A stretch of DNA of 35,817 bases, taken from the IMG/VR virus record IMGVR_UViG_2703718836_000012, positions 1 through 35,817 of that record; one strand, written 5' to 3'. This DNA is from a virus (taxonomy: Duplodnaviria > Heunggongvirae > Uroviricota > Caudoviricetes). A program made the position numbers. Below are positions 9,001 through 12,000 of this stretch, in pieces (positions within the stretch are counted from its first letter, which is position 1; the number at the start of each line of letters is the position of its first letter).

Positions 9001-12000
9001 CGTAAACTTCTGGACTAAAACGAATGTTCATCATTAGTTAATTTCCTTACGGTGTTGGTCATAACGGGCGAGAGCGTCAGCGAACATTTTCATTCGGTCT
9101 GTATACTCCCTCGATTTTGCTGCTTGCATGGATGCGTAAATAACGTGGCGTTTCACCTTACCACTCACCAGATCATTAAAAACCTGGTCACTACTGAAAT
9201 ACTTCAATAACTACCTCCTTCGGATTTTGGATGCAAAAAGCCCCAGGCAGTTACCCCGCCCAGGGCTGAAAAGTTCAGAAGGTTTTCTCCCCTTCATACT
9301 TACCATAATACACTATTTTAATAACGTTTGTCAACCACCTACCATAAAATAAATTTGTCGTCAACAATTTTTTCATAATAGGATAAGACGGCTTCTCAAG
9401 GAAGGGTATCATTTCCGGCTCTTCATGCGAGTGAGCCGATCTTGTAGCTACGCTACATCGCACAATGAACCTGTTAACACATCATTTTAATGATAAGCCC
9501 TTTTACATAATTTTGATGTGTTGAGATCGTAGGCTCACAATGAACCAGCGATCAGCGGGTGAATGTCGCATGAAAAAGTATCTGCTCATGCTCATCCTGC
9601 ACAAAGATGTATGTTCGAGGAATACGAGAACATAAGAGAGATAATTAATAACCTTAGTTTAATTAAGGGTAGTTAGTAGTTGGTTTGTGTCAGTGAGCGA
9701 AGCGAGCATGACAAATTATCTCTACAGGAAAATTTCTTCTCAACAATACTTTTCTGTAGAAGTCACTTTCATGCGCGTGATCAGCGCATACCAAATTGTA
9801 CAGTCCACTTTATGGAGAATTAACCCTCCATCAATCCTGATTACGTGTTAATAGCGAATACTCGCCTCCATAGCGCCGGAAAAATCCCACGCTAATTACA
9901 TTCTAAATACCCGCTAAACCCCAGGTAAAGCGATGCTTAATCTATTCTAAATAACCCGCCTGTAACGCCCTCTGAGCGCCTTTCTCACTTTCAAAGTATC
10001 TTTCATCACTTATACGAAAGCCTTACGCCGTGCGGCTCACAGCGATCATTGTCCACAATGAGCACTTTTATGATAGGTGCAATTTGCTTAAAGACTTTTT
10101 ATGTTTTATCAAATTTATTTGAATATCGATTTTCCATGCCCAAACCCGCCAGTTGGTTAGCATTCTAATCATTTCATCATGCAATCAGTTGCAAGTGCAT
10201 AAACTCCGCATAATCTGTGCATACAGGCAGGTTAGCGCCGCCCTCGCCTAACGGCTCTACATTTATCACCATTAAATCAATGAGATAGATAAAAACCACA
10301 CACAAGCATTGGTAGTGTGATGTTCCGCTGTTGCCGCTGTTCTTCGTGAAGAGTTGAGGATTTGGCAACGTTCAAACAGATGTTTAGACTTTTCAACATT
10401 ATGATTTTGCTAAGATATTTCCAGTTTGTGCGAATTTCGAACAGGAGAATGTGCTTGTTCGCGCTGAACCCTGGACACAATCGCGCCATCTACCACACAC
10501 AACACCGATTATTTTTTGATCATTTGTCTTGCAACTCACTGAAATTGATCATAATGTTTATTTCATTGGTTTAGATGTGTGACCTTGAAGGAGGGTAAAT
10601 TGAACAGAGCAGTGGTGTTAGACGAACAGCAAGCTAAAGCGATCAGGGAATGGCTAAACGCTCATAACAAAAGCCTGATAGCTGACGTTACGTTAATGAT
10701 GCAAGCCGCCGTATTGCGTGTGGGGGATGCCGTAGCTTTGCGCTTCGACGAAGTGATTAACGGAGAGATAGACATAGAAGAACAGAAGACTGGGAAGCGT
10801 AAAGCCCTCACCCTTCCGGCTCCAGTGGTGCAGATGATCGCTCGTCGCCGTGCTGAGTATCCGCATGATGTGCATGTGTTCAGAAGCCAGCGTAACCGAT
10901 CAATGAACAAGCAAGCGCCTGTACGACGCGAAGAAGTGAGCAAGCAGATCGCAGAGGCCGCTAAAGCTATCGGTATTCATGGCACTGTATCGGCTCACAG
11001 TTTCCGCAAAGCTGGCGGGAATGCCATCTACAAGCGTTCAGCAAACAACATCGCTTTAGCTATGACCGTGCTTAATCACAGCAACATCACTGACACCAGG
11101 CGCTATCTGGACTTAGACAAGCAAGCCGTTAGCCGGATTATCAATGAAATGGATTTATGAGAATCGAACACTCAATTTGCAGACACTACAGTACCAAGCG
11201 TTTTGACCCCTCGTGACAGCAAACTGTTGCATGTGTCTTTTGATATTGCTTGTTTCATAACAATGAGGACAAAATGGTACTTCATCTCCAGCTTTCCAAT
11301 AAACATTATCCTTGAAGATAAATGTCGATTTATCTTTCAGCTGATCTTCAAGCTGCTTATTTTTCTGTTCCGCGTCGAAAAGTAGAGTTTGTGTTGTTAT
11401 CGCTTCAATCTTGGCGTTAGCAAGTTCGACCATTAGATTGGCTAACTCAAGTTTGAGCGTAGCCTTGTCCAGTTCATCGCTGTTATTTGCCAGCTTCTGA
11501 GTGATGCTTACCGCTTTATCAAGAATCCCTATAGCTGCCGCCGTGCTTGCCAATACTCCTGCCATAACCTCTCCTACGTACGTATCGATTCGAAGAATAT
11601 GTTACTGCCGATTCCCTGCGCATACCAGTGTGGAGAAGATACCACAAGGATTCGCACACCACCTTCATCACATCACAATCAGAATCCACTTAAAATTCTT
11701 GAAATTATGTTTTAACATTGCAGGCGCTTCTAAATAAAACAATCATTCAGGATGATTTATATTCGTAAAGGTTTATTGGTGTTAGTGGCTTCAACTCTGC
11801 TTCTCTCTGGGTGTGCTGTACAGAAACAACTGGTTCCAACTGGTGGTAGCAAGGCTGATGGGACTGTAAAAATGAGCTACTCTTTCGGGATGTTCGAATC
11901 CCCTAAAGTGAACGTTCAGCAAGGCGCTCAAGCAGCAGCACAACGTTGCGCTGCATGGGGCTATTCTGGTGCTGAGCCTTTCGGTGGTTCAACTTCTGTT

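What the first reader, a model, noticed from the sequence alone, without database searches (positions are those of the whole stretch)
9431..10063. Repeat-rich 1.3-kb intergenic region (recombination sites, iterons or switch?)
The long non-coding stretch between the helicase operon and the small recombinase carries three copies of CACAATGA(A/G)C, a perfect palindrome TCATTGT-cc-ACAATGA, an 8-bp inverted pair GTGAGCCG/CGGCTCAC about 600 bp apart, and two copies of ATTCTAAATA(C/A)CCCGC. Two of the CACAATGA-containing segments look like rearranged versions of each other (GGCTCACAATGAACC-AGCGATCAG versus GGCTCAC-AGCGATCA-TTGTCC-ACAATGAGC), as expected after site-specific recombination at a short core. 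An 8-bp inverted repeat alone is expected by chance in 1.3 kb; the clustering and motif sharing is what is notable.
Basis: seen in the sequence. Interest (0 to 1): 0.5.

Follow-up and report, generated by a model that had tools for sequence, protein, structure and literature searches.

The report
Probable replication origin of a phage-satellite-like island
The repeat-rich gap is not a flip-flop DNA switch but a strongly conserved, hairpin-rich control region of a small mobile island, and it contains an inverted repeat that changes in step with the DNA-reading helix of the neighbouring helicase, which makes it most likely the island's own replication origin.

Summary
GTGAGCC (9431) pairs locally with GGCTCAC (9532), not with the copy 600 bp away.

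Conservation is what stands out. Window 1-13416 is a 13.4-kb island at tRNA-Thr. Its 9208-10599 gap is non-coding.

- **Left part (about 9405-9890):** a module bounded by an invariant inverted repeat, TTTCCGGC/GCCGGAAA. It is 92-100% identical among close relatives, more than the helicase gene. Its stems co-vary, and it always travels with the SF2 helicase gene in one orientation (56 of 56 locus records). No inverted form was found.
- **Right part (about 10006-10599):** travels with the small recombinase and holds its promoters.

The key result concerns the arms of one inverted repeat (9476-9484 / 9514-9522), which flank an 80% A+T spacer. They co-vary perfectly, in three classes over 46 records, with the recognition helix of a helix-turn-helix at the helicase C-terminus.

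Best reading (0.55): an initiator-helicase/origin pair of the SaPI Rep-ori kind. Rivals are an operator-only region, a structured RNA, and a recombinase target. None of this is experimentally shown.

The parts
9208..10599 (.). Whole non-coding gap between the helicase operon (- strand) and the small tyrosine recombinase gene (+ strand)
   Evidence: No conserved ORF. Indels are not multiples of three. The one ORF kept open in relatives (10177-10368, - strand) has substitutions spread evenly over codon positions, 18/15/15. RefSeq annotates nothing here in the 99.9% identical E. coli record.
9305..9334 (-). Sigma-70 promoter of the helicase operon (TTGACA-18-TATTAT, 11 of 12 matches)
   Evidence: The sequence is conserved in most lineages.
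9239..9267 (-). Intrinsic terminator in the leader, directly before the ribosome-binding site and TTG start of the 57-aa ORF
   Evidence: 12-pair stem with 8 G-C pairs, followed by TTTTT.
9405..9411 (+). GGTATCA heptamer abutting the left boundary repeat. This is the heptamer that forms the H3 arms in the KRN-class relatives.
   Evidence: present at position -7 in most lineages. In L024 and L046 an inverted copy also abuts the right boundary repeat, giving a 17-bp inverted repeat.
9412..9419 (.). Left boundary inverted repeat, TTTCCGGC
   Evidence: Invariant in all 31 distinct versions of the module. It pairs with 9875-9882.
9875..9882 (.). Right boundary inverted repeat, GCCGGAAA
   Evidence: 8 of 8 pairs never vary in 27 sequences.
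9422..9437 (+). 5' strand of a long-range stem. TTCATGCGA pairs with TCGCATGAA at 9566-9574, and GTGAGCC pairs with GGCTCAC at 9532-9538.
   Evidence: with compensatory G-C to A-U changes.
9444..9456 (+). Hairpin GTAGC-TAC-GCTAC
   Evidence: Two co-varying pairs. Stem variants are GTAGC/GCTAC, ATGGC/GCCAT and GCAGC/GCTGC.
9476..9484 (+). Left arm (AACACATCA) of inverted repeat H3, the proposed binding site of the helicase helix-turn-helix
   Evidence: The arms co-vary with the helicase recognition helix in three classes over 46 locus records.
9485..9513 (.). 29-bp spacer between the H3 arms, 80% A+T, proposed DNA-unwinding element
   Evidence: Read directly from the sequence. The segment is found inverted in relatives L022, L037 and L046, and partly inverted in L024.
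9514..9522 (+). Right arm (TGATGTGTT) of inverted repeat H3
9532..9543 (+). GGCTCACAATGA. GGCTCAC is the 3' strand of the stem with 9431-9437. It overlaps the conserved CACAATGA word.
9544..9560 (+). Hairpin ACCAGC-GATCA-GCGGGT. It is conserved as a structure, with different sequences in L022, L024 and the 50%-identity lineage.
9598..9606 (+). Degenerate third copy of the TGCACAAT motif (TGCACAAAG here, TGCACAATG in relatives). The other copies are at 9459-9468 and 9534-9543.
   Evidence: The motif and its positions are kept even in the lineage whose helicase is only 50% identical.
9611..9633 (+). Hairpin ATGTTC-GAGGAATACGA-GAACAT
   Evidence: One co-varying pair, with types UA, AU, GC and GU.
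9900..9959 (.). Two copies of ATTCTAAATA(C/A)CCCGC just outside the right boundary repeat. On the - strand each reads TATTTAGAAT, which resembles a -10 element.
   Evidence: Only partly conserved.
10019..10037 (.). 19-nt quasi-palindrome AGCC-TTACGCCGTGC-GGCT. Its version in L005 is the exact reverse complement of the version in L010, L012, L015 and L011, and L007 is also in the flipped orientation. It lies at the breakpoint between the helicase-linked and recombinase-linked halves of the gap.
10046..10061 (.). Perfect palindrome TCATTGT-CC-ACAATGA
   Evidence: Conserved in nine relatives. The centre reads GG in L003. It is degenerate in L006 and replaced by another palindrome in L013. It does not co-vary with the recombinase.
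10362..10390 (+). Promoter-like site TTGGCA-17-TAGACT upstream of the recombinase gene
   Evidence: The -35 element and spacer are conserved in six loci.
10529..10557 (+). Promoter-like site TTGCAA-17-TAATGT, with two conserved GATC sites at 10518 and 10547
   Evidence: Read from alignment A2.
10600..11160 (+). Small tyrosine recombinase consisting of the catalytic domain only (186 aa from the TTG start, 193 aa from the GTG start)
   Evidence: PF00589, E = 4e-16. R, K, HxxR, H and Y are all present.
7456..8940 (-). SF2 (XPD/DinG-like) helicase with a C-terminal helix-turn-helix. The recognition helix IATIQRHW is residues 485-492, encoded at about 7462-7485.
8870..9034 (-). 54-aa ribbon-helix-helix protein. 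Its N-terminal strand reads MNIRFS.
   Evidence: Weak PHROG matches to a transcriptional regulator and an Arc-like repressor, E = 2e-4 and 3e-3. The strand reads MNIRF in every lineage that has TTTCCGGC and MNINF or MKVNF in those that lack it.

Best explanation
The gap is the cis-acting control region of a 13.4-kb satellite-like island integrated at tRNA-Thr. It consists of two modules joined near 10006-10018.

The left module (about 9405-9890) is inherited together with the helicase operon. I propose that it is the island's replication origin. The SF2 helicase would use its C-terminal helix-turn-helix to bind the two inverted heptamer arms (9476-9484 and 9514-9522). It would then melt the 29-bp A+T-rich spacer between them and load itself there, as SaPI Rep helicases do at their origins.

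The other conserved hairpins, the TGCACAAT words and the invariant boundary repeats TTTCCGGC/GCCGGAAA would be accessory sites. The boundary repeats are possibly bound by the ribbon-helix-helix protein encoded just before the helicase. These sites would shape or regulate the origin and the adjacent operon promoter.

The right module (about 10006-10599) is the promoter and regulatory region of the small recombinase.

Shown here: conservation, modular inheritance, fixed orientation, stem covariation, and covariation between the helix-turn-helix and the arms. Inferred: binding, origin function, and the role of the ribbon-helix-helix protein.
For: 1. **Modularity.** 9339-10005 is present only in islands that carry this helicase family. 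Islands with a different replication module (L002) share only 10006-11161 and carry a different palindrome array (three copies of ACATCAWTTTGATGT) in the same position.
2. **Fixed position and orientation.** The module sits 463-1146 nt upstream of the helicase start, on the opposite strand, in 56 of 56 locus records.
3. **The helicase can read DNA sequence.** The model has mean pLDDT 82, an XPD/DinG-like SF2 core, and three terminal helices. Homologues hit HTH_23, GerE and HTH_7 at residues about 447-489.
4. **Perfect covariation between the recognition helix and the arms**:
   - GIATIQRHWN with ACACATCA/TGATGTGT, 16 records.
   - GIAT(I/V)KRNW(N/K) with GGTATCA/TGATACC, 15 records.
   - S(L/V)RTV(A/R)(T/S)YWNQ with G(A/G)TGCA/TGCA(T/C)C, 15 records.

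   This is not simple ancestry. P0032/L027 is 47% identical in the helicase core, yet keeps both KRNW and the GGTATCA arms. P0026, at 50%, has changed both. L037 has a helicase about 91% identical to the window's, but carries KRN together with GGTATCA arms.
5. **Origin-like layout.** Inverted binding sites flank an 80% A+T spacer. KRN-class relatives have 3-4 copies of their heptamer. L022 has long A+T-rich ATTAATTGATTAAT arrays inside the module. More distant lineages have other repeat arrays at the same place. SaPI origins have iterons pointing in opposite directions on either side of an A+T-rich centre, read by a C-terminal winged helix of the Rep helicase (PMC9371898).
6. **Palindrome centres have flipped between relatives** at three places. 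This is what is expected where DNA hairpins or cruciforms form.
Against: - No binding or replication data exist.
- SF2 XPD/DinG-type helicases are not known as bacterial replication initiators, and the island encodes no recognisable primase.
- Two to four heptamers do not explain why about 480 nt is 92-100% conserved, nor why several hairpins keep their structure while changing sequence. That pattern suits a single-stranded RNA or DNA structure.
- P0044 and P0051 (92% identical cores) differ in the putative recognition helix, yet their loci share the same hairpin arms.
- The covariation rests on about two independent switches plus one deep retention.
- A helix-turn-helix on a helicase binding near its own promoter could equally be an autoregulatory operator.
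- In SaPIs the origin lies downstream of rep, not upstream.
Confidence: 0.55

Rival explanations
1. The 9405-9890 module encodes a structured RNA of about 480 nt. This could be a stand-alone non-coding RNA, a primer or regulator of replication in the manner of ColE1 RNA II, or a long leader. It would be closed by the TTTCCGGC/GCCGGAAA helix, and its hairpins would be the functional units.
For: The fold is much more stable than shuffled sequence: z = -5.3 on the + strand and -2.9 on the - strand. On 27 sequences, 13 of 47 predicted pairs show changes on both sides, 99.3% of cells are paired, and the covariation score is 0.298 against 0.141 for shuffles and 0.03-0.06 for slid controls. Several hairpins keep their structure with unrelated sequences. 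Conservation exceeds that of the flanking genes.
Against: There is no Rfam match, even at E = 10. No conserved promoter lies upstream on the + strand, and there is no convincing terminator. The strand cannot be decided, and the - strand gives even more pairs (69 pairs at -50.0 kcal/mol against 47 pairs at -38.6). This fits DNA-level palindromes. The closing helix never varies in 31 versions, which is unusual for a purely structural helix. The 37-nt H3 core is kept almost identical in both orientations (36 of 37 nt), although inversion would complement an RNA's internal loops. Most covariation separates two clades, so independent events are few.
Confidence: 0.15
2. The module is only a transcriptional operator region. 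The helicase helix-turn-helix and the ribbon-helix-helix protein would bind the repeats to repress or loop the divergent promoters (helicase operon and recombinase), with no role in replication.
For: The module lies 75-80 bp from the conserved operon promoter. The helix-arm covariation is explained equally well by an operator. The N-terminal strand of the ribbon-helix-helix protein correlates with the presence of the TTTCCGGC repeats. Direct repeats AC(T/C)TACCATAA bracket the promoter at 9298 and 9337, with an inverted copy at 10068.
Against: A site-specific DNA-binding domain fused to a helicase motor is the hallmark of initiator helicases, not of repressors. The H3 arms are about 150 bp from the promoter and flank an A+T-rich spacer. 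The operon already has a leader terminator, which suggests control by termination.
Confidence: 0.15
3. The repeats are targets of the neighbouring small recombinase. There are two versions: the module bounded by inverted repeats is an invertible switch of the fimS kind, or the palindrome at 10046-10061 is a lox/dif-like site for resolving multimers.
For: A small recombinase gene always lies next to the module. It is a tyrosine recombinase of two diverged types, or a serine resolvase in L025 and L026. Boundary inverted repeats of 8-17 bp around a 0.5-0.7 kb non-coding segment resemble an invertible promoter switch. The palindrome could be read as 9-bp arms around an 8-bp centre, TGTCCACA, and that centre is exactly inverted in L003. 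Small palindrome-centre inversions do exist between relatives.
Against: No locus record out of 56 has the module inverted. The predicted inverted junctions are absent from metagenome and viral contigs. The boundary repeats and the palindrome stay the same next to recombinases 42% identical or of another superfamily, and the palindrome is degenerate next to a 97% identical recombinase. The left module is inherited with the helicase, not with the recombinase. The small inversions have 4-9-bp arms and are better explained by template switching at quasi-palindromes (my own knowledge of that mutational mechanism).
Confidence: 0.07

Closest known systems
SaPI / PICI Rep-ori pairs (self-loading initiator helicases of staphylococcal pathogenicity islands)
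   Same: Both sit in a phage-satellite-type island. In both, a helicase carries a C-terminal sequence-reading domain. The short repeats point in opposite directions on either side of an A+T-rich centre, and protein and site form matched specificity classes (PMC9371898).
   Different: Here the motor is an SF2 XPD/DinG-like fold, not the hexameric AAA+ type. There are only 2-4 repeats. The site lies upstream of and divergent from the operon, not downstream of rep. No primase gene is present. The site is embedded in a module of about 480 nt with conserved hairpins and invariant boundary repeats. Nothing has been tested experimentally.
Herpes simplex virus UL9 and oriS (from my own knowledge, not tested here)
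   Same: An SF2 helicase with a C-terminal origin-binding domain. Two inverted binding boxes flank an A+T-rich spacer. The origin palindrome can adopt a hairpin form.
   Different: That system is a eukaryotic virus with no sequence relationship to this one. UL9 needs ICP8. The resemblance is one of architecture only.
fimS / FimB-FimE invertible promoter switch of E. coli
   Same: A small tyrosine recombinase of about 190-200 aa lies next to a non-coding segment bounded by short inverted repeats. There is also an unusually long upstream regulatory region (my own knowledge for fim).
   Different: No orientation polymorphism appears in 56 locus records. The segment is inherited with the helicase rather than the recombinase. 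No outward-reading promoter was identified, and no sequence similarity was detected.
Multimer-resolution sites of plasmids and phages (Cre/loxP, ResD/rfsF, XerCD/dif-cer)
   Same: A palindromic site with an asymmetric centre lies a few hundred bp upstream of a small tyrosine recombinase gene and next to a replication module.
   Different: The perfect arms are 7 bp with a 2-bp centre, which is not the 11-13 + 6-8 + 11-13 layout unless it is re-read. The site does not co-vary with the recombinase.
Loop inversions at quasi-palindromes by template switching (known from chloroplast non-coding hairpins and bacterial quasi-palindromes; my own knowledge)
   Same: Exact reverse-complement replacement of the centre of a hairpin, with the stems kept, is seen at 9481-9517, 10019-10037 and the centre of 10046-10061.
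   Different: Here three such events cluster within 600 bp of one control region. That may reflect frequent hairpin extrusion or single-strandedness at this locus.

Membership tests
Iteron-type origin with cognate initiator helicase (SaPI Rep-ori kind) | The initiator protein combines a helicase motor with a sequence-specific DNA-binding domain | tested here: met
   SF2 core (DEAD/ResIII in Pfam; XPD/DinG-like fold, E = 2.5e-11) plus a C-terminal three-helix helix-turn-helix. HTH_23, GerE and HTH_7 match in homologues.
Iteron-type origin with cognate initiator helicase (SaPI Rep-ori kind) | Short repeats in opposite orientation flank an A+T-rich region | tested here: met
   AACACATCA (9476-9484) and TGATGTGTT (9514-9522) flank a 29-bp spacer that is 80% A+T. 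There are only two copies in this window, and 3-4 in KRN-class relatives.
Iteron-type origin with cognate initiator helicase (SaPI Rep-ori kind) | Specificity is matched between the initiator's DNA-binding domain and the repeats | tested here: met
   Three classes correspond perfectly over 46 locus records, with two independent switches and one deep retention. There is one possible counter-example, P0044 versus P0051.
Iteron-type origin with cognate initiator helicase (SaPI Rep-ori kind) | The site supports initiator-dependent replication, and the initiator binds and melts it | not testable with these tools
   This needs EMSA or footprinting, a plasmid maintenance assay, and marker-frequency or 2D-gel analysis.
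Invertible promoter switch (fimS type) | Both orientations of the segment occur in nature | tested here: not met
   One orientation in 56 of 56 locus records. Inverted-junction searches were empty. These are consensus assemblies only, so rare inversion is not excluded.
Invertible promoter switch (fimS type) | Inverted repeats bound the segment and a recombinase gene lies nearby | tested here: met
   TTTCCGGC/GCCGGAAA is 8 bp here and 17 bp in L024 and L046. The recombinase gene starts 717 bp to the right of the right boundary repeat.
Invertible promoter switch (fimS type) | The recombinase and its inverted repeats are inherited and diverge together | tested here: not met
   The repeats are invariant next to tyrosine recombinases 42% identical and next to a serine resolvase. 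The module is inherited with the helicase.
Tyrosine-recombinase core site (lox/dif/FRT type) | Two inverted arms of about 11-13 bp lie around a 6-8-bp asymmetric centre and are specific to the cognate recombinase | tested here: inconclusive
   10041-10066 has 12-nt arms that are 83% complementary around CC. It can be re-read as 9 + 8 + 9. There is no covariation with recombinase type.
Described structured RNA family (Rfam 15) | A match to a curated covariance model | tested here: not met
   No match at gathering score over the whole window. In 9150-10650 there were only two sub-threshold chance hits, both over the leader terminator.
DnaA-box cluster (DnaA-dependent origin) | Enrichment of TTWTNCACA boxes | tested here: not met
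   73 matches with up to one mismatch in the window, against 77 expected. Seven of them fall in the 9208-10599 gap, each with one mismatch, and the only one inside a flagged motif is TTGTCCACA at 10049.
Helper-phage cos/pac mimic | Sequence similarity to a packaging site of a known phage | tested here: not met
   No blastn match of 9380-10200 or 9200-10600 in 50,697 phage records, in near and distant modes.

The most novel reading that the evidence does not exclude
The roughly 480-nt module bounded by inverted repeats may be more than a set of protein-binding sites. It could be a new large structured nucleic-acid element specific to this island family. One possibility is an RNA that primes or licenses replication for an SF2 helicase-initiator in an island that lacks a primase. 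Another is a segment that the adjacent small recombinase inverts only after induction. Either would be a replication or switch mechanism not described for phage satellites.
Probability: 0.15. Interest if true: 0.75.

Novelty: new variant of a known kind. Interest (0 to 1): 0.45.

Why it matters
If the reading is right, this island family replicates with an SF2 (XPD/DinG-like) helicase that reads its own origin through a C-terminal helix-turn-helix. The family is found in Escherichia, Citrobacter, Klebsiella, Enterobacter, Buttiauxella and Pseudenterobacter, and has no annotation beyond 'hypothetical'. Initiator helicases of that superfamily are known from herpesviruses (UL9) but not, to my knowledge, from bacterial mobile elements.

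The three natural specificity classes are QRH, KRN and S.RTV..YW. They give a ready-made test of how two residues in a recognition helix re-target an origin. They may also explain how related satellites avoid cross-talk.

The work also shows that the words a reader can spot by eye were not the informative ones. Conservation and protein-site covariation were.

Tried and rejected
- **600-bp inversion between GTGAGCCG and CGGCTCAC.** Rejected. The local partner is at 9532, orientation is fixed, and the junction search was empty.
- **Inversion between the boundary repeats.** No inverted form was found. One search used a pattern that also matches the normal right junction, so it says nothing.
- **Known RNA family.** None found.
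- **Deciding the strand by energy or G-U pairs.** Inconclusive.
- **Hidden protein-coding gene.** Rejected for 10177-10368. The other ORFs are broken by indels.
- **DnaA boxes.** Not enriched.
- **cos/pac mimic or plasmid origin homology.** No match in phages or plasmids.
- **Defence-system proteins.** Only a weak HamB-like helicase hit.
- **Solved-structure sequence relatives of the helicase and the recombinase.** None.
- **Palindrome at 10046 as the recombinase site.** No covariation.
- **Independent mobility of the module (MITE-like).** It is never seen without the helicase context, and I saw no target duplication when reading the flanks of the 17-bp repeats in L024 (not tested systematically).
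- **Literature search for a named island family or for RNA-guided tyrosine recombinases.** Nothing relevant.
- **Fur-box reading of CATCATTTTAATGATAAG.** Considered by eye only and not pursued.
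Full report
**Where the region sits.** Window 1-13416 is 99.9% identical to a 13.4-kb island in E. coli XYEH3934, which lies between a P4-type integrase gene and tRNA-Thr (thrW). The window has no intact tRNA. It keeps only the 46-nt att copy at about 13371-13416 and then continues into a second element. The island encodes:

- an integrase (1-1215);
- a 623-aa protein resembling a tape measure;
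- a lambda-E-type major capsid protein (4045-5076);
- an SF2 helicase (7456-8940, - strand), preceded by a 54-aa ribbon-helix-helix protein and a 57-aa ORF;
- after the gap, a 186/193-aa tyrosine recombinase made of the catalytic domain only (10600/10579-11160, + strand).

The gap 9208-10599 has no annotated gene in RefSeq.

**The observation.** All the listed words are present, but none exceeds chance. In simulations of a 1.39-kb sequence of this composition, a triple 8-mer occurs in 30% of cases, a perfect palindrome with 7-bp arms in 37%, and as many 8-bp inverted pairs in 10%. CACAATGA is not enriched in the window.

**What is exceptional is conservation.** Relatives from Citrobacter, Pseudenterobacter, Buttiauxella, Klebsiella and many metagenomes were collected. 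Among close relatives, 9405-9900 is mostly 85-100% identical per 100 nt, and above 92% in its best-kept stretches. The helicase gene is only 84-91% identical. Homology has a breakpoint at about 10006-10018:

- The left part occurs only with this helicase family.
- The right part (10006-11161) also occurs with the recombinase in islands that have a different replication module (L002), in a decayed island at tRNA-Gly (L003), and in L006.

In L002 the corresponding gap holds three ACATCAWTTTGATGT palindromes and folds with z = -7.5.

**Anatomy of the left module.** A pattern search of metagenomes gave 40 more loci. Together with the earlier loci there are 31 distinct versions of a 485-680-nt module. 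It is bounded by an invariant inverted repeat, TTTCCGGC (9412-9419) and GCCGGAAA (9875-9882), which is 17 bp long in L024 and L046. Inside it:

- GTGAGCC (9431) pairs with GGCTCAC (9532), with a G-C to A-T change in 10 of 27 sequences.
- TTCATGCGA pairs with TCGCATGAA.
- GTAGC-TAC-GCTAC has three stem variants.
- The 9544-9560 hairpin keeps its shape with unrelated sequences.
- ATGTTC...GAACAT co-varies.

On 27 sequences, 99.3% of cells are paired and the covariation score is 0.298. Shuffles give 0.141 (0 of 500 reach the observed value) and slid controls give 0.03-0.06. Most changes separate two clades, so independent events are few. The fold is far more stable than shuffled sequence (z = -5.3 on the + strand, -2.9 on the - strand). 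The strand cannot be decided, and Rfam has nothing.

**No switch.** The search regex covers one boundary repeat plus the adjoining interior, so it would also find an inverted module. In all 56 locus records that hold a helicase, the module lies 463-1146 nt upstream of the helicase start on the opposite strand.

What does occur is small inversions of palindrome centres:

- The 37-mer at 9481-9517 is reverse-complemented in L022, L037 and L046, and its inner 19 nt in L024.
- The 19-mer at 10019-10037 is reverse-complemented in L005 and L007.
- The CC centre of the 10046 palindrome reads GG in L003.

I attribute these to template switching at quasi-palindromes. That rests on my own knowledge, not on a test made here.

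**The decisive link.** The helicase model (mean pLDDT 82) has an XPD/DinG-like SF2 core and ends in three helices. Homologues hit helix-turn-helix families at residues about 447-489. The last helix (IATIQRHW, residues 485-492) falls into three classes, and each class goes with one version of the arms of inverted repeat H3 (9476-9484 / 9514-9522):

| Recognition helix | H3 arms | Locus records |
|---|---|---|
| GIATIQRHWN | ACACATCA/TGATGTGT | 16 |
| GIAT(I/V)KRNW(N/K) | GGTATCA/TGATACC | 15 |
| S(L/V)RTV(A/R)(T/S)YWNQ | G(A/G)TGCA/TGCA(T/C)C | 15 |

There are no exceptions among 46 locus records. Ancestry alone does not explain this:

- The L027 lineage is 47% identical in the helicase core and keeps both KRNW and GGTATCA.
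- The lineage at 50% identity has changed both.
- L037 has a helicase about 91% identical to the window's but carries both KRN and GGTATCA, two patches about 2 kb apart.

KRN-class modules hold 3-4 GGTATCA copies, and the window keeps one at 9405-9411. The arms flank a 29-bp spacer that is 80% A+T.

**Interpretation.** A helicase motor fused to a sequence reader, binding inverted repeats around an A+T-rich centre, with matched specificity classes: this is how SaPI Rep-ori pairs are built (PMC9371898). From my own knowledge, HSV UL9-oriS is built the same way. I therefore read the left module as the island's origin (confidence 0.55).

The invariant TTTCCGGC repeats may be sites for the ribbon-helix-helix protein. 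Its N-terminal strand reads MNIRF in every lineage that has the repeats and MNINF or MKVNF in those that lack them. That split follows phylogeny, so the evidence is weak.

Several things remain unexplained:

- the extreme conservation of the whole 480 nt;
- the TGCACAAT words, which are kept even in the 50% lineage;
- the P0044 and P0051 lineages, which differ in the recognition helix but share their hairpin arms.

**The right module.** It carries two promoter-like sites for the recombinase, at 10362-10390 and 10529-10557. The second has two conserved GATC sites. It also carries the conserved palindrome at 10046 and the 19-nt hairpin. The palindrome is the same next to a recombinase only 42% identical, and degenerate next to one 97% identical. 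Nothing therefore ties it to the recombinase. The 63-aa ORF at 10177-10368 stays open in five of six relatives, but its substitutions show no codon-position bias.

**Other rejected readings.**
- DnaA boxes are not enriched.
- There is no similarity to phage or plasmid records.
- There are no defence-system hits of note.

**Verdict.** The inversion and recombination-product reading is not supported. The best-supported reading is a helicase-specific origin and control module, a new variant of the satellite Rep-ori theme. A structured-RNA role and a rare recombinase-driven inversion remain open.

Noticed in passing
window 1-13416 and 13417-35817: Two mobile elements sit in tandem at thrW. The first is a 13.4-kb satellite-like island: P4-type integrase, tape-measure-like protein, lambda-E-type capsid protein, SF2 helicase and small recombinase, with no terminase or portal detected among the ORFs scanned. 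The second is a prophage that starts with gtrA, gtrB, a DUF6056 (gtrC-like) gene and an acyltransferase (13618-17900, 30-37% GC), followed by myovirus-type tail genes. This is the layout of Shigella SfV/SfX-type serotype-converting phages, and the prophage may be the island's helper.
   Followed up: partly
window 9239-9334 (- strand): The conserved helicase-operon promoter (TTGACA-18-TATTAT) is followed about 30 nt later by a strong intrinsic terminator, immediately before the ribosome-binding site and TTG start of the 57-aa ORF. The operon looks to be controlled by attenuation or by a (helper-encoded?) antiterminator.
   Followed up: partly
window 9481-9517, 10019-10037 and 10053-10054; loci L022, L024, L037, L046, L005, L007, L003: The centres of three palindromes are exact reverse complements in some relatives while their stems stay in place. 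A 37-mer, its inner 19-mer, a 19-mer, and a CC/GG centre are affected. This is a cluster of hairpin-loop inversions within 600 bp.
   Followed up: partly
window 10518-10557; L024 3083-3769, L029 923-1594: The recombinase's proximal promoter carries two conserved GATC sites, one of them just before the -10 element. Two relatives have a Dam-family methyltransferase gene inserted between the recombinase and the module. This hints at methylation-dependent control.
   Followed up: no
window 8870-9034; alignment A9: The N-terminal DNA-reading strand of the ribbon-helix-helix protein reads MNIRF(S/T) in every lineage whose module has the TTTCCGGC/GCCGGAAA repeats, and MNINF or MKVNF in lineages without them. 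A further GCCGGAAT lies inside its own gene at 8958-8965.
   Followed up: partly
window about 9765-9770: The window's lineage (also L001, L004, L070) lacks 17-19 nt that form the 3' arm of a hairpin (TACAGGA.A / T.TCCTGTA) present in all other relatives. One conserved element of the module is therefore broken here.
   Followed up: no
window 9298-9308, 9337-9347 and 10068-10079: AC(T/C)TACCATAA occurs twice as a direct repeat bracketing the operon promoter. It occurs once inverted, 716 bp away, right after the 10046 palindrome. The third copy is conserved even in islands without the helicase. It could be an operator set.
   Followed up: no
L025/L026 2080-2637; L022 2505-3122: The slot next to the module is filled by recombinases of different families in different lineages: two diverged catalytic-domain-only tyrosine recombinases, or a 185-aa serine resolvase. 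This suggests an interchangeable resolution or inversion function whose target was not identified.
   Followed up: partly
window 10177-10368 (- strand): A 63-aa ORF stays open in five of six relatives, but it has no codon-position bias (18/15/15 variable sites), no ribosome-binding site, and a TTG start. Its openness appears to be a by-product of strong non-coding conservation.
   Followed up: yes
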